A stretch of 64,000 nucleotides of DNA from a virus (taxonomy: Duplodnaviria > Caudoviricetes). The translations under genes were made by a program, and so were the position numbers. The first letter of the stretch is position 1. Each line of letters opens with the position of its first letter. Where the stretch lies: positions 18,451 through 82,450 of the IMG/VR virus record IMGVR_UViG_3300036805_000137; one strand, written 5' to 3'. A model generated the notes under the pieces. It was given only the letters and a program-made list of their open reading frames with translations, was not told the origin of the DNA and did no database searches. Below, one piece after another: positions 27,507-39,778 of this stretch.

Positions 27507-29399
27507 ATGCCACTCGACTGGGTACCCGCGGATGCACCACCACTGCCACCCGCGCTGCCCCGGCCATCTTTCAACCGGGCTGGATTTCGACCAGCACCGC
27601 TGCCCGGTATCAGTTTCGGACTGGCAAGCCGTAATCCGCGAGTGCAGCCGGCCACTGTGTTTGGTGAGCTCACGGCGGATGGTCGCAGCATCGTGCTGGT
27701 AGTCAGTGGTGATCCGTGGTCGTGTGAGAAAGCATTTGATGAGCTGGCCGAGTTCACCGCTAAGATCAAGCCGGCAGAAGATGGCCTGACTCTGACCACG
27801 CCACTGACTTGGCCGACCATCATTCAGCTGTCGTGTGCGTTCGGCTCGAACTGGTCGGCAGGCAACCGGCTGCAGACGTGGTTTTTCGGGGAGCTCGCGC
27901 GGCGCACCCAGTGGATTGACAAGCCGCTGCGCTACCAACTGCCGGCGGGCCTAGAGCTGCGTCCGTGGCAGCCGCTGGCGGTGCGCCAGGTGGCTCATAT
28001 GGGCTGCCTGCTGGAAGATGCCCCGCGGCTGGGCAAAACCATCAGCGCGATTGTGGGCCTCGCTGAGCGGGCCTGCTGGCCGGTCTATGGGGACGTCACG
28101 CCGTGCGTGGTGGTGTGCCCGGCATCCGTGGTCACCGCGTGGGTGCGAGCTTTCGAGCTCTGGGCTCCGCACTGGCGCGTCATTGCCTGGCGCGGCGGCA
28201 ACAAAGATCAGCGCCGCGAGTGGGTCGGTGCCTATGACGTCTATGTGGCCAGCTATGCCGTTGCGCGTCGCGATGCCAAGGCCGGGGCCAACCTGGGTGA
28301 CTCGCCGCTGGCCCGGATCAAAGCACCTACAGTGATCGCGGATGAGTATCACTGGCTAGGCAATCCTGATGCTCAGCAAACCCGGGCAACGCAGCGGCTG
28401 GCCCGCCAGGCCCGCATCTTTATCCCACTGTCGGGCACGCCTTTCAATCACAACATTTCCAATATGCAGCCCACTTTGGAGGTGTTCGAGCCGCCGGCAT
28501 TCCCGGCCAGAGAGCGCATTGTCACACGGTGGTGCACGCAAAAGTCACTGGATTACGGCACCAAAATCACTGGTATCAACCCGCTGCGTGAGGCTGAGAT
28601 GCGCACGTGTTTTCTGGGCCGGCAGTTGCGGCGGGCTCGCGAGGACGTGGCGGAATGGCTGAGCAGTAAAACCTACAGCACGCGCATGGTACCAATCCCG
28701 CAGCCATATCTCAAGATGTACAGGGATATGGAAAACCGGATGATCGCAGAGTTGGATAACGGTGATGAGGTCACCGTGATGTCCACTATCACCAAAATCC
28801 AGCGGCTGCAACAGTTATCCGCATCGGCTTGTGATCTGTCGGTTACCTACACACAGGATGAGGAGACCGGTGATGACATCGAGCACCAGCACCTGACACC
28901 TCGGCTGCCCAGCTGGAAAGTAGACGCCATGATCGATGTGCTGGCTGAGCTGGAATGGCCGGCTATCGCCTTCGGCATCTCCAAGCCGCTGATGCTCATC
29001 GCGGGGCAGGAGGCAACGCGCCAAGGCGCCCGCGTGGGCTATGTGGTGGGCGGCCAGACCACCCGGATCCGTGATGCCGATGTGGACGCGTTCCAAGCCG
29101 GCAAACTCGATCTGCTCTGCGTAGTCGTGCAGGCAGGCGGTACGGGCCTCACCCTCAATGCGGCCGGCACAGAGATCTTCTTACAGCGCCCGTACTCGTT
29201 TGTGGATTCCACTCAGGCAGAGGATCGAGGCGTGGGTGAGCGGTATCCCACGCTCGACATTGTTGATCTCGTGGCGGAAAACAGTGTCGATAACCGCATC
29301 CGCGAAATACTCCATGGAAAGGCCGCACAGCTGTCACAGTACCTAGCAGATCCTCGCATTGTCCGTGAGTTGTTTGGGGGAAAGGTGAAAGCAGCATGA
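27507..29399 (+). CDS. SNF2-like helicase/ATPase
   Basis: LRPWQ, DAPRLGKT, VVVCPASV, IADEYH, LSGTP, AGGTGLTL, QAEDR. Confidence 0.85.
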   Translation: MPLDWVPADAPPLPPALPRPSFNRAGFRPAPLPGISFGLASRNPRVQPATVFGELTADGRSIVLVVSGDPWSCEKAFDELAEFTAKIKPAEDGLTLTTPLTWPTIIQLSCAFGSNWSAGNRLQTWFFGELARRTQWIDKPLRYQLPAGLELRPWQPLAVRQVAHMGCLLEDAPRLGKTISAIVGLAERACWPVYGDVTPCVVVCPASVVTAWVRAFELWAPHWRVIAWRGGNKDQRREWVGAYDVYVASYAVARRDAKAGANLGDSPLARIKAPTVIADEYHWLGNPDAQQTRATQRLARQARIFIPLSGTPFNHNISNMQPTLEVFEPPAFPARERIVTRWCTQKSLDYGTKITGINPLREAEMRTCFLGRQLRRAREDVAEWLSSKTYSTRMVPIPQPYLKMYRDMENRMIAELDNGDEVTVMSTITKIQRLQQLSASACDLSVTYTQDEETGDDIEHQHLTPRLPSWKVDAMIDVLAELEWPAIAFGISKPLMLIAGQEATRQGARVGYVVGGQTTRIRDADVDAFQAGKLDLLCVVVQAGGTGLTLNAAGTEIFLQRPYSFVDSTQAEDRGVGERYPTLDIVDLVAENSVDNRIREILHGKAAQLSQYLADPRIVRELFGGKVKAA

Positions 29400-29917
29400 G
29401 AACTATTCTCCTAACGGACTCTGACGTAATTCTACTTGATGACTCTGACTATAATCTAGCAAAGAGATACAATTGGTGGGCTTTGCGCACTACAAATGGA
29501 AAGAAAATAAAATATGCTGCATCCGATGTATTCACACGAGGTGAGCGCTGCACATTATTGCTACATCGAGTATTATTGCAACCGCGAGCAGATCAATACA
29601 TAGATCACATAAACCACAATGGTTTAGATGATCAAAGACACAATCTCCGTGTTTGCACAATGTCTCAAAATCAAGGTAACCGAAGGAAGCAATCCAACAA
29701 CACATCCGGTTATAAAGGTGTGCACTGGCATACCCAAAGACAAAAATGGTGCGCAAGCATCAAAATTAATTACCGATCACACTCACTGGGATTATGGTCT
29801 GACCCTTGGAGAGCTGCCCAAGCATATAACAGAGCAGCCTTGGAAGCATGGGGCGAATTCGCATTGATCAACGTGGAACTAGCGGAGGAAAGGTCAAAGC
29901 AGCATGAGGCTATTTAA
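29396..29917 (+). CDS. HNH-AP2 homing endonuclease
   Basis: LHRVLL...IDHINHNGLDD...NLR, NNTSGYKGV...W.ASI...AAQAYN..A...GEFA. Confidence 0.9.
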   Translation: MRTILLTDSDVILLDDSDYNLAKRYNWWALRTTNGKKIKYAASDVFTRGERCTLLLHRVLLQPRADQYIDHINHNGLDDQRHNLRVCTMSQNQGNRRKQSNNTSGYKGVHWHTQRQKWCASIKINYRSHSLGLWSDPWRAAQAYNRAALEAWGEFALINVELAEERSKQHEAI

Positions 29918-33881: not shown

Positions 33882-34259
33882 GTGGTTAGAATGCAGTCAC
33901 ACGTGCCAGGACAGGTATACCTTTTGCATTTCACGGTTCCCTACGTGGCAATCCAGCATCCAGGCAAAAAATACCAGTGTGCAAAGCATTACCTGGGCTG
34001 GTCGAAAGATCTCATCGCCCGGCTGGCTGCGCACAAGAATGGCAATGGCTCGCGATTGGTGCAGGTAATCAACGATGCTGGTATCGAATGGGAGCTGGCC
34101 CGGGTGTGGAATGGTGACCGTTTCCTCGAGAGACAATTAAAGAAACGTGGTGGACGTAGCCGGATCTGTCCTATCTGCCAGGGCACCGGAATAGCCCTGC
34201 AGTGGGAGACATATAACACAACCGCAGCATTACTAACCGGGATAAGTGTGGGTGCATAA
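33882..34259 (+). CDS. GIY-YIG-like endonuclease
   Basis: VYLLHF...HYLGWS..L..RLAAH..G.G...ER.LK. Confidence 0.8.
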   Translation: MVRMQSHVPGQVYLLHFTVPYVAIQHPGKKYQCAKHYLGWSKDLIARLAAHKNGNGSRLVQVINDAGIEWELARVWNGDRFLERQLKKRGGRSRICPICQGTGIALQWETYNTTAALLTGISVGA

Positions 34260-37200
34260 TGGCTTACGGTGGATATGCATCATTCTATGTGATAGCTGGC
34301 TGGCGGTGTGTACTGCCGGTGCCGGTCCGGTCGAAGACACCGCCACCTACCGGCTACACGGGTGATCACGGTACCGATGTGGTAGCGCCTGAGGTGTTGG
34401 CGAAATGGGAGCGAGCTCACGCGGATGACTCGATCGCATTGCGGCTGCCGGCCGGCGTGATCTGTATCGATATTGATCATTACGATAAGCCCAAGGTGTT
34501 GCCCGATGGCACGGTCACCGTAGTGGCCAAGCGGGGCAATGACACCATTGCCGAATATGAGGCCAAGTGGGGACCGCTGCCGCCCACCTGGGCGAGCACC
34601 GCGCGGGGGGATCCCAACACGGGCGCCGGCCCTTCCCGAACGTTGTTTTACCGGGTGCCGCCCGGGCGTTATGCCACCACCCTGGGCGACCCGCGCAACG
34701 GCGCGGTGGAAATCCTGCAGCGCCACCACCGCTACTGCGTGGTGTGGCCTTCGATCAACCCGGACGCCAACAATGCGCAGTACTACTGGTACGGGCCTGG
34801 GGATCTGGGCGAGCAACGGCCACCGTGGATCGATGAGCTGACGCTACTGCCCAACGCCTGGGTGATCGGGCTCGCAGAAGGCGCCAGCGCGGCCAGCGCG
34901 CCCGCGGCACCCATGGCCGAGGGCGCGGCGCTGCTCGCGGCTCTGCTCGATGATGACCGGCCGCCGTGCGCGGACATCACCAACATTGCCCTGACCGCGG
35001 CTGATGAGCTTGACCACGCGGCGGCGGGCAGCCGTCATGACATCGCCACCGGTCGGATCTTCCAGCTGATCCGAGCGGCTGCGTTCGGCCACCCGGGCGC
35101 GGGCGAGGTGCTGGCCGACCTGCGCACCCGCTGGGATGCCCTGACCGCGGGCGAGCACCGGGCCGATGAATTCGAGCGGATGGCCAGCTCCGCGGCGTGC
35201 AAGGCAGTAACCGAGGTCAGCGCCACCGGCTGCCCGGTGCCCGTGGCCTATGACCCGTGCCTCATGGGTACCGTCGTTGCGCCACCGGTCCCGGGCCGAC
35301 CTAGCCACACCACCGGCCCCGATGGTGAGCTCGATGACGCCAGTGATGCCGATGTGCTCGATATCCCCGCGCCGGCACCGCCCATCATCTGGTCTAGGCG
35401 AGCGCTGATCGGCACTGGTGCCTTCGACCCCCGCGGGCATCTTGATCAGGTGCTCGCTGCCCAAGCACTAGAGCGGATCCAACCGGTGCTGCGGTTCGCC
35501 ACCGATGTGGGCGCGTGGGCGGTCCGTGGCCCGTACTCCTGGGATATGGCGCCCGGCGATATGGCCGACTGGGCACTGACGGAACTGTTCGACCTGATGC
35601 CCCACGGCGACCCGGACTCAGAATCCACTGAGGCACAGGACCGCGCGGCGCGGCGCAAACGGTTTGGGCAAAACAGCGGGTCAGCGGGGATAGCGAGCAA
35701 ACTGCGGGCACTGGTGCGGGCCTCTGGCGCATCGAGCACGGTCCGGCTGTCCGACCTCGATGCCGATCCCGAGATTATGTGGGCCGGGCGGCTGCCGTGG
35801 GCGCTGCGCAGCTGCATCGAGCGTCCCGCGCTAGCCAACCTGCCTGCTGACACCCCGCACCTGCACTCAGCCGGCGTGGCGCCCTCTGGGCTGGGTATCG
35901 AGCACCCTACACCGGCCTGGGATGCGTTCTTGGCCGCGGTGTGGCCGGATCCGGCTATCCGACAGTGGGCGCTGCACGTGGTCTCTGTAGCCCTGACCGG
36001 CTACTCAGACGCAGTGATGCCCCTGCTCTGGGGGGAGACCGGCCGCGGGAAGACAGCGTTTACCGCGCTGGTGATGTCCGTGCTGGGCAGCTATGCCATC
36101 GCGGCTGATCCCCGGCTGTTGACCAGCGCGGCCGACAACGCGCATGCCTCGATCATCTACGCGCTGCGGGGGGTCCGGCTGGCCTTCATCGATGAGGGGC
36201 CACGGGATGCCAAGTGGGCGGTGTCCAAGCTCAAGCAGCTCACCGGGGGAGCTCGCCTGACCGGCAACCCGATGCGCGGCAACCCGGTGAACTTCGACCC
36301 CTCGCACACCCTGATGCTGACCTGCAACCCTGAGGAGACACCGGGTTTTCAAGACAAGGCGTTGCGGCGCCGGCTGCGGTTGATCCCGTGCGAGGGCGAG
36401 CCTGACGCGGTCGGCCGGGCGCGGGCTGCGATCACCCCGGCGATCTGGCGGGCAGAGGCACCGGGCGTGCTGGCCAAGCTGATGCACGCCACTGCTCGAT
36501 GGCTCGATGACCCGGGTGTGGCTGCGCAGTGGAGTGCACCTGAGGCGATCCGGTTTCGCGCGGAAGACATCGCCAATGAGGAAGATCAGATCAGGCAGTG
36601 GATCGATGCCGAGATGGAGCCATGCGATCACGGCACCCGGGTCAGCGACCTGCTCATCTGGTTTATCGACTGGCTGCGCAAGGTCGCACCCCGGGCCAAC
36701 CCTCCCAGCGCTACGCTGTTCGGCCGCAAACTGACTGAGCTGGGCTACCTGGCACTGCACCAGCGGGACGGCAAACACCGCCCATTGCGGCGCCGGCAGA
36801 CCAACTACGGGCCTGACGTGCCCCCACCAAGCGCGCCTGGGCCGGGCCAACCGATCCATGCACCACTGCCACCCATGCCCCCGCTCACAGTGATCCAGTA
36901 CGACCAGCGCAACGCCGCACCCAGATCAACAGGCCCCTCCGCAGATGCGGCACCGACTACGGCGCCTGACGGGGGTAGCGCGCGCAGCTCTGACAACCCC
37001 GGCGACCTGCCCACACCCCCGACTGAAACGATCATGAGTAGCGGGGCGGTAGTTCCGCGCGAGCCTACCCCCGTTGCTGAAACGGAGCCGCAAACACGGA
37101 ATTGTGCACAAGCAAACGAAACCGCATCTGCTGACCCCCGTTCCCCTGGTAGTGACCGCATCTGCGAAAAATTAGGCCAAACGGATGGTGATGGTGACCT

Positions 37201-39778
37201 CGCTGCGAGCGCTGAGCTTGATCGCAGACACGAACAGAGCAGCAAACGATCTTCACAAGATCAAACGAGTGAAATGTCCGATTCACCTACTCCGTGTACT
37301 AAGCAATCAACTTCACCCGCCGTTCACCCTCCTGTGACCGAAACGAGACCTGATCTTGTGACGGGTTCAAACCCGTCACACAACCCGTCACAAACCCGTC
37401 ACAAGATCAACATTCCTCCTACCAGTAGTAATACTCTTATTTTTGATCTATGTGACGGGTTGACGGGTTTTTCTAGCTATGGAGCTGTCATAAAAAATGA
37501 AGATCAATCTTCCTTAATGATCTCTGGGCAAATATATGGGGATATACCCGAGGTAACCCGTCACCCGTCACAGTCGATCATTTCAGAGGGGGTGACCTCG
37601 CGAAACGACTGTGACGGGTCATTTTCCCAACCAGTCACAGAGCCCGCGGCCAGCCCGGCGCCGGTCGTGACCTGCGAGCCGCTAGCCCAAATGGATGAGG
37701 CCAGCGCTACGGCGCGGCTAGTCGAGCTGCGAGCCCAGCGCACCCAGCTCAATAGGTTGATCAAGAAAACTAACGGGGCAGATCCCCTGCACGGCGTGTA
37801 CACGTACACGGTGGGCCAGCTGGCCGGCGAGATCAAGCAAGTCGAGGTGATGATCCGAGGCCACCGCGCGGCGACCAAGCGAGCGGCAGCGGTAGCGGAA
37901 GCCGGCGGTGATCTCCTAGAGCTCCCAGCGATCAAACTGCGGGGCCAGCCGGCCCGCTCGTGCTCCGTGGATGAGGCTGCCGCTGCGGTGCGAGCCACCA
38001 TGGCAGCCCGGGCTGGCCGCGTGACGGCCGATATCGAATCCAACGCCTACCCGATCGGGCACCCGGACTACGGCGTGCGCACGCTGCAGCTGGGCGATGC
38101 GCTCACCGGCACGGACTGGGATGTCACTGACCCGGTGCAGTTCGCCGTGTGCACCTTGCTCCTGAGCGAGGCAACCGAGATCGAGGCCTACTCCGCATCA
38201 GTCGAGATATCCAACCTGGCCTACATCGGCATGATCGATTACCGCAGCGGCTGGGCGCGAGCTCGCGATGTAGTGATCCAAGCCCAGTTGAACAACCCAG
38301 TGGGCACGCTGAGCTCGGACAGCGGCCTAAAACCGCAAGCGGAGCTGCACCTGCCGGATCCGGCCAGCCCGGCAGCCGATGCGCGCCGCGCCGCGCTGTT
38401 CAAAGCGGGCGGCTGGATCACTGACACCAAGATCAAAAACGCCGGCGGTAGTGAGGGTGGCGGCTGGGTAGCCCGCGAGCGCTCTGGTTGGGCCAACGCC
38501 GACCCCCGGTACCGCACCAGCATTGACTATGCCGTCTCTGACATCCATGACACAGCTGCGCTGGGTGAGGCCCTACCGATGCCGGCGCCAGGCGTCTACG
38601 CGCGGGAGGTGGCCGTACAGGCGGCTGTAGGGGCAGTTTCCTACGTGGGCATCGCGCTCGATCGCAGCCATATCGAGGCCAAGATCGCAGAGCACTCGCC
38701 AATGCGCCGCGCCGCTGCGGAGGAACTGGCCGCGATGGGCATCACCAACCCGGGCAGCAACGATCAGATAGCCGCGGTGTTGATGGCTCACGGCGCCCGG
38801 CTGCCCCGGGGGGAAAAATCAGGCAAGCCCGGCGTAGCAGCGGGTGTGCTGGAAAAACTACCGCGCAATCAGGGTGAGCAATTTACACCCATTGTGGAAG
38901 CGATACTACGATTTCGGCATCATCAGCGGATCCTGTCCACCTACCTGCGACCCTATTACCTGCTGTGCACCCATGGGGATGGACGGATGCGCAGCACCGT
39001 GTACACGCTGCAGGCTGATACCGGCCGCATGTCCTGTGTCCACGAGAATCTGACCAACATCCCGCGCATCGGCGGAATTCGAGAATCTTATGTCACTGAC
39101 CCGGGGGATCTGTTCGTAGATGCTGACCTTTCCGGGGTAGAGGTGGCCGTACTCGCCGCGCTATCACAGGATCCGGTATTGCTTGAGCTGGTTGCCTCTG
39201 GTCGGAAACTGCACAAAATCATTGCTGAAATGGTCTACGGAGCTGGTTACTCAGGCGAGGAATACACCTACGTCAAAAATGGTGTGTTCGCCAAACTCTA
39301 CGGCGCGGGCATCGCGCGCATTGCCGATACGGTCGGTTGCACTGAGCGGGAAGCTCAGATGATGGTGGATGCGCTCGATGAGCTAGCCCCGCACACCAAG
39401 CGATGGGGTTATGATCTGCGCAATAAGGCCAAGGCAGGCATGCAGCGGGTGCAATTGTATTCCGGCCGGGTGCTGCACCTGCCGTCCGCGACTCCGCACA
39501 AGATAGTGAATTACTATGTCCAAGGTACCGCGCGTGAGCTCTTGGTTGACGGGTTGCTGAGATGGCGCCAGACAAAGTGGGGCGACTACGGCATCATTGT
39601 GCCCGTGCATGATGAGATCCTGGCCACCGTGCCCGCGGTAGAGGCTGACGAGGCCATGGCTGCGTTGGGCCAGTGCATGGCCTCAGAGCTCTACGGCGTG
39701 CGCATCGGCGCCGAACCCAAGTGGATCAATCCCTCTGACCGCTGGCTGTCCAATGACCACCCACTAGCGAAAGGCTAA
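34259..39778 (+). CDS. Fused replicase: bifunctional primase-polymerase + D5/SF3 helicase + family A DNA polymerase
   Basis: N-terminal IDID...EILQRHHRYCVVWPS prim-pol; Walker A GETGRGKT (36032) and FIDE...LKQLTGG; exo DIESN; PolA motifs TGRMS, DADLSGVE, KNGVFAKLYGAG, VQGTA, VHDE. Confidence 0.9.
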   Translation: MAYGGYASFYVIAGWRCVLPVPVRSKTPPPTGYTGDHGTDVVAPEVLAKWERAHADDSIALRLPAGVICIDIDHYDKPKVLPDGTVTVVAKRGNDTIAEYEAKWGPLPPTWASTARGDPNTGAGPSRTLFYRVPPGRYATTLGDPRNGAVEILQRHHRYCVVWPSINPDANNAQYYWYGPGDLGEQRPPWIDELTLLPNAWVIGLAEGASAASAPAAPMAEGAALLAALLDDDRPPCADITNIALTAADELDHAAAGSRHDIATGRIFQLIRAAAFGHPGAGEVLADLRTRWDALTAGEHRADEFERMASSAACKAVTEVSATGCPVPVAYDPCLMGTVVAPPVPGRPSHTTGPDGELDDASDADVLDIPAPAPPIIWSRRALIGTGAFDPRGHLDQVLAAQALERIQPVLRFATDVGAWAVRGPYSWDMAPGDMADWALTELFDLMPHGDPDSESTEAQDRAARRKRFGQNSGSAGIASKLRALVRASGASSTVRLSDLDADPEIMWAGRLPWALRSCIERPALANLPADTPHLHSAGVAPSGLGIEHPTPAWDAFLAAVWPDPAIRQWALHVVSVALTGYSDAVMPLLWGETGRGKTAFTALVMSVLGSYAIAADPRLLTSAADNAHASIIYALRGVRLAFIDEGPRDAKWAVSKLKQLTGGARLTGNPMRGNPVNFDPSHTLMLTCNPEETPGFQDKALRRRLRLIPCEGEPDAVGRARAAITPAIWRAEAPGVLAKLMHATARWLDDPGVAAQWSAPEAIRFRAEDIANEEDQIRQWIDAEMEPCDHGTRVSDLLIWFIDWLRKVAPRANPPSATLFGRKLTELGYLALHQRDGKHRPLRRRQTNYGPDVPPPSAPGPGQPIHAPLPPMPPLTVIQYDQRNAAPRSTGPSADAAPTTAPDGGSARSSDNPGDLPTPPTETIMSSGAVVPREPTPVAETEPQTRNCAQANETASADPRSPGSDRICEKLGQTDGDGDLAASAELDRRHEQSSKRSSQDQTSEMSDSPTPCTKQSTSPAVHPPVTETRPDLVTGSNPSHNPSQTRHKINIPPTSSNTLIFDLCDGLTGFSSYGAVIKNEDQSSLMISGQIYGDIPEVTRHPSQSIISEGVTSRNDCDGSFSQPVTEPAASPAPVVTCEPLAQMDEASATARLVELRAQRTQLNRLIKKTNGADPLHGVYTYTVGQLAGEIKQVEVMIRGHRAATKRAAAVAEAGGDLLELPAIKLRGQPARSCSVDEAAAAVRATMAARAGRVTADIESNAYPIGHPDYGVRTLQLGDALTGTDWDVTDPVQFAVCTLLLSEATEIEAYSASVEISNLAYIGMIDYRSGWARARDVVIQAQLNNPVGTLSSDSGLKPQAELHLPDPASPAADARRAALFKAGGWITDTKIKNAGGSEGGGWVARERSGWANADPRYRTSIDYAVSDIHDTAALGEALPMPAPGVYAREVAVQAAVGAVSYVGIALDRSHIEAKIAEHSPMRRAAAEELAAMGITNPGSNDQIAAVLMAHGARLPRGEKSGKPGVAAGVLEKLPRNQGEQFTPIVEAILRFRHHQRILSTYLRPYYLLCTHGDGRMRSTVYTLQADTGRMSCVHENLTNIPRIGGIRESYVTDPGDLFVDADLSGVEVAVLAALSQDPVLLELVASGRKLHKIIAEMVYGAGYSGEEYTYVKNGVFAKLYGAGIARIADTVGCTEREAQMMVDALDELAPHTKRWGYDLRNKAKAGMQRVQLYSGRVLHLPSATPHKIVNYYVQGTARELLVDGLLRWRQTKWGDYGIIVPVHDEILATVPAVEADEAMAALGQCMASELYGVRIGAEPKWINPSDRWLSNDHPLAKG
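37357..37639. repeat. Iteron-like AACCCGTCACA repeats in both orientations around an AT-rich core (candidate origin)
   Basis: TGTGACGGGTT at 37357 and 37451; AACCCGTCACA at 37370, 37382, 37393; variants at 37461, 37555, 37565, 37610, 37629. Confidence 0.75.

What the first reader, a model, noticed from the sequence alone, without database searches (positions are those of the whole stretch)
34259..39778. Single-chain replisome: prim-pol + SF3 helicase + PolA in one 1839-aa ORF
All three catalytic modules have recognisable motifs in one uninterrupted frame, joined by a disordered linker of about 300 aa. Prim-pol/helicase fusions are common, and the apicoplast Prex is a known primase-helicase-PolA fusion built from different primase and helicase families (TOPRIM/DnaB). 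An AEP+SF3+PolA chain carrying two polymerase-capable active sites is, to my knowledge, poorly characterised.
Basis: partly seen in the sequence, partly recalled or inferred. Interest (0 to 1): 0.75.

Follow-up and report, generated by a model that had tools for sequence, protein, structure and literature searches.

The report
Phage replicase gene containing its own origin
A soil phage encodes primase, helicase, proofreading exonuclease and DNA polymerase in one 1839-residue protein, and the "linker" between the two halves looks like the phage's replication origin translated in frame, a layout shared by a large undescribed family of actinobacterial phages.

Summary
Window 34259-39778 (+) is one uninterrupted 1839-aa ORF with AEP Prim-Pol, a D5-like SF3 helicase plus a winged-helix-like domain, a long low-confidence linker, a helical hairpin, a probable DEDDy exonuclease and PolA.

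The fusion is not an assembly artefact. At least 120 protein clusters share the architecture. All 15 close relatives found in actinobacterial genomes match across both halves (one, L018, shows a frame break). An independent contig reproduces the linker exactly.

The linker is more than a spacer. Its core (37351-37639) carries nine or ten copies of the 11-mer AACCCGTCACA in both orientations, around a 150-bp stretch of 38% GC in a 64% GC gene. Only one further copy occurs in the 82-kb genome.

All 18 other fused relatives and the 3 split forms examined have an equivalent array at the same place. The layout is conserved but the repeat sequence differs between lineages.

In that segment dN/dS is about 1 and synonymous change is depressed. 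The frame carries no stop in 18 loci, against 56-130 in each other frame.

Best reading: an iteron plus AT-rich replication origin translated as the inter-domain linker, as with lambda ori inside gene O. Origin function is inferred, not shown.

An unchecked first-reader note (e1-5870901) flagged the same repeats on this genome.

The parts
34259..39778 (+). Whole ORF of 1839 aa (P0001): fused primase-helicase-exonuclease-polymerase.
   Evidence: There is no in-frame stop. Relatives at 72-94% identity have 1817-1901 aa.
34283..34801 (+). AEP Prim-Pol domain (aa 9-181). D71/D73 (DxD) and H156/H157 are invariant in the family.
   Evidence: PF09250 at E 7e-16. Invariant columns come from the 16-sequence alignment A2.
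35933..36385 (+). D5-like SF3 helicase core (aa 559-709). It has Walker A GETGRGKT (G592, G597, K598), Walker B D645/E646 and motif C N690.
   Evidence: PF19263. phmmer matches ASFV C962R at E 6e-4 and poxvirus D5/E5.
36593..36805 (+). Winged-helix-like domain (aa about 779-849), the candidate iteron-binding domain.
   Evidence: The AF2 model has pLDDT 85-87 here with beta-alpha-alpha-beta-beta topology. Foldseek gives only weak matches to the RFX winged-helix DNA-binding domain (prob 0.97, TM 0.60-0.64, E 0.5-0.7). The binding role is inferred by analogy with the P4 alpha / D5 family (PMC4889955).
36827..37678 (+). Linker predicted to be disordered (aa 857-1140); Pro/Ser/Thr-rich in its 5' part.
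   Evidence: pLDDT about 30 with no secondary structure. dN/dS is 0.28-0.55 in aa 851-1025. In-frame length variation occurs among relatives, including an Endonuclease VII insert in P0004.
37351..37639 (.). Iteron array. The 11-mer AACCCGTCACA occurs at 37357(-), 37370(+), 37382(+), 37393(+), 37451(-), 37459(-, 2 mismatches), 37555(+), 37562(+), 37610(-) and 37629(+). The array includes a 17-bp perfect inverted repeat, 37351-37367 / 37393-37409.
   Evidence: Nine matches with at most 1 mismatch lie here and 1 elsewhere in 64 kb, against 0.92 expected; the same holds for the whole 82-kb genome. dN/dS is 0.66-1.05 with depressed dS.
37404..37554 (.). AT-rich core between the iteron clusters (GC 0.38 against 0.64 for the gene), the candidate DNA-unwinding element.
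37697..37900 (+). Helical hairpin (aa 1147-1214) preceding the exonuclease.
   Evidence: AF2 pLDDT 88-93 with two long helices. dN/dS is 0.17-0.52.
38006..38578 (+). Probable DEDDy 3'-5' exonuclease (aa about 1250-1440). Motif residues are D1258, E1260, E1316 (D in most relatives), Y1424 and D1428.
   Evidence: PF01612 hits relatives P0020 and P0074 above its cutoff but not this protein. The motif residues are invariant in alignments A2 and A5. The profile search against PDB gave only a weak NrnC hit.
38615..39751 (+). Family A DNA polymerase (aa 1453-1831). Motif A is D1623, motif B is K1673/F1677/Y1681/G1682 and motif C is H1784/D1785/E1786.
   Evidence: PF00476 at E 9e-41. Taq/Klenow match at E 2e-24.

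Best explanation
This is the replicase of a complete uncultivated soil phage of about 82 kb, probably infecting Actinomycetota. One polypeptide carries an AEP primase-polymerase, a D5-type SF3 helicase with a C-terminal winged-helix-like domain, a probable proofreading exonuclease and a family A polymerase. The DNA between the helicase/winged-helix half and the exonuclease/polymerase half is the element's origin of replication. It consists of about ten 11-bp iterons in both orientations flanking a 150-bp AT-rich unwinding region. The origin is translated in frame, so its peptide forms part of a disordered tether of about 290 aa.

Proposed mechanism: the winged-helix domain recognises the iterons, the SF3 helicase assembles and melts the AT-rich core, the AEP domain primes, and the tethered PolA extends the primer.

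Shown here: the ORF, its domains and motif residues; the iteron and AT-rich element and its conservation across the family; DNA-level rather than protein-level constraint on that segment; and selection that keeps the frame open.

Inferred: that the element fires as an origin, that the winged-helix domain is its binder, and that the full-length chain is the active species.
For: (1) ORF and domains. Catalytic residues of all modules are invariant in 16 sequences at 43-75% identity.

(2) The fusion is conserved. 204 hits fall in the 1011-3219 aa range, and the best 120 listed carry PolA plus Prim-Pol and/or DUF5906, apart from one intein-bearing hit without a PolA domain. A genome scan seeded only on Prim-Pol and helicase motifs returned 15 close relatives in Micromonospora, Kribbella, Nocardioides, Labedaea, Actinophytocola, Jatrophihabitans and Mycobacterium genomes, and all match across both halves (one, L018, shows a frame break).

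(3) In the window, nine AACCCGTCACA matches lie within 283 bp, against 0.92 expected per 64 kb and 1 elsewhere. The same holds over the whole genome. GC falls to 0.38-0.40 there.

(4) The other 18 fused loci examined (19 counting the window) have a GC minimum and 7-11 repeat copies at the homologous spot. The layout is conserved: three repeats in one orientation and one in the other (in the window the order is inverted); about 50 nt later, two overlapping; about 85 nt later, one or two inverted. The repeat sequence is lineage-specific...CCCGTCAC......CCCGGCAC......CCCGGCGC..., TGTGACCAGT, GTGCAGGGGG, GTGGAGGGTT. All copies within a locus have changed together, as expected for sites that co-evolve with one binder.

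(5) Codon analysis in the close clade gives dN/dS of 0.07-0.17 in the enzymatic halves and 0.66-1.05 in aa 1026-1135. In that segment change is equal at codon positions 1, 2 and 3, and dS is 0.19-0.43 against about 0.8-1.3 in the flanks for the more divergent pairs. The conserved peptide islands NPSHNPSQTRHK and CDGLTG are simply translated iterons.

(6) The frame is kept open. There are 0 stops in 480 nt around the GC minimum in 18 loci, against 102, 130, 86, 56 and 105 in the other five frames. Strain variants differ by in-frame changes, for example 186 nt replaced by 519 nt, a difference of 333.

(7) The rare split forms keep the array at the junction of the two genes. The DNA element is therefore the constant feature.

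(8) Precedent: ori-lambda lies in the middle of gene O, with four iterons bound by O (PMC3985674). D5/P4-alpha type SF3 helicases bind origins through a C-terminal winged helix (PMC4889955).
Against: No experiment or marker-frequency data show initiation at this site. Cumulative GC skew is ambiguous: a sustained rise begins at the element, but the global minimum lies about 29 kb upstream.

The winged-helix assignment rests on a mid-confidence model and Foldseek E-values of 0.5-0.7.

In the most GC-rich relatives, repeat counts of 8-9 are no higher than the best chance 10-mer in control windows, which reach 7-8 and once 12. The case there rests on homologous position, related motif and layout.

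The Pfam exonuclease model does not hit this protein itself.

Split forms, with L047 a genuine stop, show that translation through the element is not indispensable.
Confidence: 0.75

Rival explanations
1. The repeat array is a binding platform for something other than replication initiation, embedded in the gene. Candidates are an autoregulatory operator set, a partition (centromere-like) site or a packaging signal.
For: Arrays of short repeats in both orientations also occur at operators and parS-like sites. No direct replication data exist. GC skew is not decisive.
Against: The array sits inside the replicase gene, directly after a winged-helix-like domain of an SF3 primase-helicase, and brackets the sharpest AT-rich dip of the gene. 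That combination is the classic iteron plus unwinding-element origin. No promoter-like site lies in the region. The record's ends are far away, and the 127-nt terminal repeat looks like an assembly overlap. This speaks against a pac/cos site at this position. An attP site is excluded because the gene is intact inside chromosomal contigs of 0.69-1.4 Mb.
Confidence: 0.12
2. The full-length chain is not the working enzyme. The gene yields two products, primase-helicase and exonuclease-polymerase, by proteolysis of the long disordered linker, internal initiation or frameshifting. The open frame through the origin then only avoids polarity or uncoupled translation.
For: Split relatives exist at 46-51% identity. 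L047 has a real stop inside the array and a separate PolA gene, while L045 and L046 have two overlapping frames. Cultured actinophages keep the two genes separate. A disordered segment of about 290 aa would be protease-sensitive.
Against: More than 100 fused clusters stand against about 9 split ones. There are no stops in 18 loci through AT-rich DNA, where 3-7 would be expected per locus. Indels preserve the frame. The Met near the end of the linker is not conserved. Two of the three split loci could be single-base assembly errors.
Confidence: 0.2
3. The repeats are protein-level repeats of a low-complexity linker (tandem peptide motifs) with no role as DNA.
For: The repeats are translated, and some peptide islands are conserved in the close clade.
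Against: Copies lie in both orientations, so they give unrelated peptides. dN/dS is about 1, change is equal at all three codon positions and dS is depressed. The array persists, partly untranslated, in the split form L047. In different lineages the DNA motif changes in all copies together.
Confidence: 0.02

Closest known systems
Phage lambda ori inside gene O
   Same: An iteron array plus an AT-rich region lies within the coding sequence of the element's own replication protein and is translated between two protein parts. [quoted passage not shown]
   Different: Lambda O is only an initiator that recruits host DnaB, primase and polymerase. Here the same chain carries primase, helicase, exonuclease and polymerase. 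The iterons are 11 bp in about 10 copies in both orientations. The proteins are unrelated.
D5 / P4-alpha / ASFV C962R primase-helicases (primase + SF3 helicase + C-terminal winged helix)
   Same: The N-terminal half (aa 1-850) has this organisation: PHROG 1156 over aa 3-832, sequence matches to C962R and D5, and a winged-helix-like C-terminal domain. Origin binding by that domain is the known rule in this group (PMC4889955).
   Different: None of these carries a polymerase. As far as I recall, their origins are not reported inside a linker of the same gene (my knowledge, not tested here).
Actinoplanes phage phiAsp2 Pas55 (primase + SF3 helicase + PolA fusion; PMC4889955)
   Same: It is a single-chain primase-helicase-PolA replicase in a phage of Micromonosporaceae.
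   Different: Its primase is of the Toprim/DUF3854 type, not AEP. Only the PolA palm and fingers align, at 29% over 258 aa. It has no GC dip or iteron cluster inside the gene. It is an independent fusion.
Lactococcus phage 1706 gp55 and Rhodococcus phage homologues (AEP + SF3 + PolB; PMC4889955)
   Same: AEP primase, SF3 helicase and a replicative polymerase in one chain.
   Different: The polymerase is family B. These proteins were not examined here.
Apicoplast Prex and AEP-PolA fusions of the 'Hot Spring 1' PolA cluster (PMC10201439)
   Same: Primase (and helicase) fused N-terminally to an exonuclease-proficient PolA. The PolA part of Prex matches at E 1e-13.
   Different: Prex uses a TOPRIM primase and a DnaB-type helicase. 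The Hot Spring AEP-PolA fusions are reported in Verrucomicrobia, Planctomycetota and Nitrospirae and belong to another PolA subfamily. That survey lists D29-like actinophage PolAs as having no known partners.
Unfused replication modules of cultured actinophages (Streptomyces TG1 gp30/gp31, phiBT1 gp9a/gp11, Microbacterium phiMiGM15, Arthrobacter Iter)
   Same: The gene order is the same, primase/helicase followed by PolA. Identity is 26-31% in both halves.
   Different: They have two genes, often with small or HNH genes between them. No iteron cluster occurs in or between them.

Membership tests
AEP primase-polymerase (Pfam PF09250 Prim-Pol) | Profile match above the curated cutoff | tested here: met
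   59.4 bits against a cutoff of 22.8, aa 9-181.
AEP primase-polymerase (Pfam PF09250 Prim-Pol) | Catalytic motif I (DxD) and motif II histidine are conserved | tested here: met
   D71, D73, H156 and H157 are invariant in 16 sequences. The motif III assignment (D261) is by inference only.
D5-like SF3 helicase | Walker A, Walker B and motif C, plus similarity to solved D5-type helicases | tested here: met
   G592/G597/K598, D645/E646 and N690 are invariant. PF19263 scores 28.0 against 27.6. ASFV C962R matches at E 6e-4 and D5/E5 at E 0.03.
D5-like SF3 helicase | C-terminal winged-helix origin-binding domain | tested here: inconclusive
   The local model has pLDDT 85-87 with winged-helix topology. 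Foldseek matches to the RFX DNA-binding domain have E 0.5-0.7, and there is no Pfam hit.
Family A DNA polymerase | Profile match and motifs A, B and C | tested here: met
   PF00476 at 140 bits. Taq matches at E 2e-24. D1623, K1673/F1677/Y1681/G1682 and H1784/D1785/E1786 are invariant.
DEDDy 3'-5' exonuclease (PF01612) | Profile match in this protein | tested here: not met
   There is no PF01612 hit for P0001, even for the excised region at E <= 10. The family profile against PDB gives only NrnC at E 0.94.
DEDDy 3'-5' exonuclease (PF01612) | Exo I (DxE), Exo II (D) and Exo III (Yx3D) residues; profile match in aligned relatives | tested here: met
   D1258, E1260, Y1424 and D1428 are invariant. 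Position 1316 is E here and D in most relatives. PF01612 scores 27.5-31.2 bits, above its cutoff, in P0020 and P0074.
Iteron-type replication origin | Clustered repeats of one short motif, far above chance | tested here: met
   Nine matches in 283 bp against 0.92 expected per 64 kb. The best count is 10 against at most 4 in control windows of this genome.
Iteron-type replication origin | Adjacent AT-rich unwinding region | tested here: met
   GC is 0.38 over 37404-37554, against 0.64 for the gene.
Iteron-type replication origin | Linked to its initiator gene and conserved with it; repeat sequence co-varies with the protein | tested here: met
   The other 18 fused loci and all 3 split loci examined carry the array at the homologous place, with lineage-specific motifs.
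Iteron-type replication origin | Initiator binds the repeats; replication starts there | not testable with these tools
   This needs EMSA or footprinting, a plasmid replication assay or marker-frequency mapping. Only contigs, not raw reads, were available.
Prex / Twinkle / T7 gp4-type primase-helicase(-PolA) | TOPRIM primase and DnaB-type (SF4) helicase | tested here: not met
   The N-terminal half is AEP plus SF3. Only the PolA part resembles Prex.

The most novel reading that the evidence does not exclude
Reading through the origin is itself functional. The replicase is made in cis on the very DNA it must fire: with coupled transcription and translation, the winged-helix domain emerges just as the polymerase transcribes the iterons. 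The tether keeps PolA at the primase-helicase. Together this gives a self-contained 'one protein plus about 300 bp' replicon. Iteron specificity diversifies lineage by lineage, which would work like incompatibility groups among actinobacterial phages and prophages. If true, purified protein and an ori plasmid would form a minimal, orthogonal DNA replication system.
Probability: 0.25. Interest if true: 0.8.

Novelty: new variant of a known kind. Interest (0 to 1): 0.62.

Why it matters
This work defines a large family of single-chain primase-helicase-exonuclease-PolA replicases in phages and prophages of Actinomycetota. I found no paper describing it, and databases label its members only 'DNA polymerase' or 'P4 family primase'.

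It also gives a precise, testable prediction of their replication origins. Origins are poorly mapped in actinobacteriophages (my knowledge, not tested here).

The in-frame origin is a clear natural example of DNA under two constraints at once: sequence-specific protein binding plus 'no stop codons'. It explains why a seemingly junk linker has conserved peptide islands.

If origin and protein suffice for replication, the pair would be a compact module for plasmid vectors in Micromonospora, Nocardioides and related genera, and for minimal in vitro replication. The lineage-specific iterons offer ready-made orthogonal variants.

Tried and rejected
- **Viral contig scan:** The search for related loci with the single protein in viral contigs found no relatives. 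Relatives came from protein look-ups and the genome scan instead.
- **Cultured records:** megablast against cultured phages found nothing. No cultured phage or PLSDB plasmid holds the fused gene.
- **Unfused actinophages:** I looked for iterons between the separate primase and PolA genes of TG1, phiMiGM15 and Iter and found none above background. The first version of that script timed out.
- **phiAsp2 Pas55:** it has no embedded array.
- **GATC clustering:** 8-9 sites fall in 360 nt at the element, but GATC is frequent throughout this genome, many windows have 6 or more, and relatives show little enrichment. I did not use it as evidence.
- **GC skew:** ambiguous.
- **RNA and signals:** the Rfam scan of the linker gave only a chance miRNA hit far below threshold. 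No promoter- or terminator-like sites were found.
- **Fold and profile searches:** Foldseek on the helicase/winged-helix model gave no match at E <= 0.001. Pfam on the excised exonuclease and winged-helix regions gave no hits. The exonuclease profile against PDB gave only E 0.94.
- **Sequencing runs:** no RNA holder is listed, so nothing can be said about expression. Parts of the stretch are uncovered in runs X2, X3 and X6, which carries no weight.
- **attP reading:** rejected because the gene is intact in chromosomal contigs.
- **Peptide-repeat reading:** rejected.


Full report
**1. The observation**

Window 34259-39778 (+) is a single ATG-initiated ORF of 1839 codons. The window is part of a complete 82,450-bp virus record from a soil metagenome. 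The record's 127-nt terminal repeat looks like an assembler overlap of a circular or permuted genome.

Domain searches give these hits:
- Pfam: Prim-Pol at aa 9-181, the SF3-type DUF5906 at aa 590-704 and DNA_pol_A at aa 1486-1810.
- PHROGs: the primase family over aa 3-832 and the DNA polymerase family over aa 1242-1821.
- Solved structures: the polymerase part matches Taq/Klenow at E 2e-24. The helicase part matches ASFV C962R and poxvirus D5/E5.

In a 16-sequence family alignment at 43-75% identity, the catalytic residues of every module are invariant:
- AEP: D71/D73 and H156/H157.
- SF3 helicase: Walker A G592/G597/K598, Walker B D645/E646 and motif C N690.
- Exonuclease: Exo I D1258/E1260 and Exo III Y1424/D1428.
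- PolA: motif A D1623, motif B K1673/F1677/Y1681/G1682 and motif C H1784/D1785/E1786.

The exonuclease is the least secure module. PF01612 hits relatives above its cutoff but not this protein. A family profile finds only a weak DEDDy match in the PDB.

The neighbouring genes form a phage DNA-metabolism module: an SNF2 helicase, an HNH endonuclease, two MazG-like pyrophosphatases and DUF4406.

**2. Is the fusion real?**

A search restricted to 1011-3219 aa returned 204 hits. The best 120 carry PolA together with Prim-Pol and/or DUF5906, apart from one intein-bearing hit (P0088) without a PolA domain. They fall into three groups:
- A close clade of 1817-1901 aa at 72-94% identity, on phage-sized contigs of 81-83 kb.
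- Intermediate forms at 49-59% identity.
- A large set of about 1550-1600 aa from Micromonospora, Prauserella, Kribbella, Nocardioides and Jatrophihabitans.

That search is biased towards long proteins, so I also scanned one genome per species. The patterns used lie only in the Prim-Pol and helicase domains. All 15 close matches (44-50% identity) match across both halves, although one of them, L018, shows a frame break.

The reverse search for shorter proteins found about nine split clusters at 46-51% identity. So the fusion is usual but not universal.

A Logan contig at depth 12.9 reproduces 36500-38300 exactly, though it is probably from the source sample. Related strains differ by substitutions or by in-frame changes: 186 nt replaced by 519 nt, a difference of 333, and a compensated +1/-1 pair.

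No cultured phage (INPHARED) or plasmid (PLSDB) record has the fused gene. Cultured actinophages have adjacent separate primase/helicase and PolA genes at 26-31% identity.

**3. What the linker is**

AlphaFold2 gives aa 857-1140 a pLDDT of about 30 with no secondary structure. A confident helical hairpin follows at aa 1147-1214 (the alignment had only 6 sequences).

The alignment of the close clade showed odd conserved peptide islands inside this otherwise variable stretch. At the DNA level these features appear:
- GC falls from about 0.68 to 0.40 at 37375-37524.
- The 11-mer AACCCGTCACA occurs nine times (at most 1 mismatch, both orientations) between 37357 and 37639.
- It occurs once elsewhere in 64 kb, where 0.92 matches are expected by chance.
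- The whole 82-kb genome adds no further copy.

The peptide islands are these repeats translated: NPSHNPSQTRHK is three tandem iterons, and CDGLTG is two overlapping inverted ones.

**4. The element is a family trait**

The other 18 fused loci examined (19 counting the window) have a GC minimum and 7-11 copies of a 10-11-mer at the homologous position. Few or none occur in the flanking 9-17 kb.

The layout recurs across loci:
- Three repeats in one orientation, 10-21 and 11 nt apart, and one in the other orientation. In the window the order is inverted, with the single copy first.
- About 50 nt later, two overlapping copies.
- About 85 nt later, one or two inverted copies.

The motif itself differs between lineages:
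- AACCCGTCACA in the window, L003, L006 and L017.
- AACCCGGCACA in L004.
- AACCCGGCGCAA in L005.
- TGTGACCAGT in L009.
- GTGCAGGGGG in L011.
- GTGGAGGGTT in L019.

All copies within a locus have changed together, as expected for sites that co-evolve with one binding protein.

As a control, I applied the same 'best 10-mer' procedure to 252 random 700-nt windows. The mean was 4.4. In this genome the control maximum was 4 against an observed 10. In the most GC-rich genomes chance values reach 7-8, and once 12, so there the argument rests on position, motif relatedness and layout.

Three unfused cultured actinophages and the independent phiAsp2 fusion show no such array.

**5. Constraint analysis**

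Codon-aligned comparisons within the close clade gave the following:

| Region | dN/dS |
|---|---|
| Two enzymatic halves | 0.07-0.17 |
| 5' linker | 0.28-0.55 |
| Helical hairpin | 0.17-0.52 |
| aa 1026-1135 (the array) | 0.66-1.05 |

In the array segment, change is equal at the three codon positions. dS is depressed to 0.19-0.43, against about 0.8-1.3 in the flanks at the same divergence.

The segment is therefore conserved as DNA and is essentially unconstrained as protein, with one exception: it never acquires a stop. In 480 nt around the GC minimum of 18 loci, the reading frame has 0 stops. The other five frames have 102, 130, 86, 56 and 105.

**6. Split forms**

Three split relatives all keep the array at the junction.
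- In L045 and L046 the two genes are overlapping open frames separated by one frameshift. These may be assembly errors.
- In L047 a genuine stop lies inside the array, and PolA restarts 443 nt later.

The DNA element is the constant feature, and translation through it is the common state.

**7. Interpretation**

An iteron array bracketing an AT-rich core is the standard anatomy of an iteron-type origin. This one lies inside the replicase gene, immediately downstream of a winged-helix-like domain. That domain has pLDDT 85-87, beta-alpha-alpha-beta-beta topology and only weak Foldseek matches to the RFX DNA-binding domain.

[quoted passage not shown] In the D5/P4-alpha group the C-terminal winged helix is the origin binder (PMC4889955).

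I therefore read the locus as a self-contained replicon: origin recognition, melting, priming and elongation on one chain, with the cognate origin translated as part of the tether.

Four alternatives were weighed.
- **Operator, partition or packaging site:** less likely, because of the AT-rich core, the lack of promoter-like sites and the distance from the genome ends.
- **attP:** excluded, because the gene is intact in chromosomal contigs of 0.69-1.4 Mb.
- **Peptide repeats:** excluded and by the two orientations.
- **Processing into two proteins:** remains open.

GC skew is not decisive. No RNA family matches the region.

**8. Relation to what is known**

Single-chain helicase-primase-polymerase fusions were noted in 2016 for Lactococcus phage 1706 gp55 (AEP + SF3 + PolB) and Actinoplanes phage phiAsp2 Pas55 (DnaG-type + SF3 + PolA) (PMC4889955).

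I examined Pas55. Its primase is DUF3854/Toprim-like, only the PolA core aligns (29% over 258 aa), and it has no embedded array.

The 2023 PolA reclassification reports AEP-PolA fusions only in the 'Hot Spring 1' cluster, in non-actinobacterial phyla. It lists D29-like actinophage PolAs as having no known partners (PMC10201439).

Four full-text searches found no description of this AEP + SF3 + exonuclease + PolA family or of its in-frame origin. The architecture is thus a new variant of a known kind. The translated origin is a new instance of the lambda-O principle in an unrelated and much more complete replicase.

An unchecked first-reader note on the same genome (e1-5870901) flagged the same repeats. 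I found them independently before reading that note, and then tested the idea across the family.

**9. Verdict**

- Confidence is about 0.9 that the gene is a genuine, conserved four-activity fusion.
- Confidence is about 0.8 that the linker core is a functional DNA element.
- Confidence is about 0.75 for the combined statement that it is the origin served by this protein.
- Interest is 0.62.

Noticed in passing
L002:4700-4900 (P0004 aa 907-956); also window 36969-37156 in run X6: The 79%-identical relative P0004 carries an Endonuclease VII (His-Me finger) domain inserted in frame in the 5' linker (PF02945, E 4e-9). A related strain in run X6 replaces 186 nt at the same place with 519 nt, also in frame. 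The linker seems to be a landing pad for homing-endonuclease-like inserts that are read through.
   Followed up: partly
P0074 (aa 1334-1575) and P0088 (aa 785-865): Other family members carry probable inteins. P0074 has Hint plus HNH_3 plus an intein splicing domain inside its PolA. P0088 has LAGLIDADG/Hom_end inside its SF3 helicase.
   Followed up: no
window 33882-34259 (+): A 125-aa ORF has a stop that overlaps the replicase start (ATGA). A gene of 111-123 aa sits in the same place in relatives L002, L003, L005, L039, L040 and L041. It has no Pfam or PHROG family, only faint zinc-ribbon hints at E about 0.04. It could be an accessory replication or DNA-binding protein.
   Followed up: partly
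window 37240-37600: This is the highest GATC density in the window, 8-9 per 360 nt, mostly as AGATCA/TGATCT and partly fused to iterons (TCACAAGATCA occurs three times). GATC is common genome-wide and the enrichment is weak in distant relatives. The 94% relative (L039) has an N6/N4 methyltransferase gene two genes upstream of the replicase.
   Followed up: partly
L012 and L014 (contig CAZDAO010000001.1, 62097-78920 and 15149-31972): The same fused gene occurs twice, 46,948 nt apart, on one 101,680-nt contig of a Nocardioides MAG, with identical iteron maps. This looks like a phage or plasmid genome of about 47 kb assembled as a concatemer.
   Followed up: no
L018 (Actinophytocola sp. NPDC049390), locus about 9312: The open frame of this relative ends after about 1300 codons, although tblastn matches continue to residue 1819. 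This may be a frameshift, a pseudogene or an insertion in the polymerase half.
   Followed up: no
window 27507-29917: An SNF2-family helicase (630 aa) is followed by an HNH/AP2 endonuclease, upstream of the replicase. The SNF2 gene recurs upstream of the replicase in split relatives L045 and L046.
   Followed up: no
G000 ends (record 1-127 and 82324-82450): The 'direct terminal repeat' of the record is exactly 127 nt. That length is typical of an assembler k-mer overlap, so the physical ends of the phage genome are unknown.
   Followed up: partly
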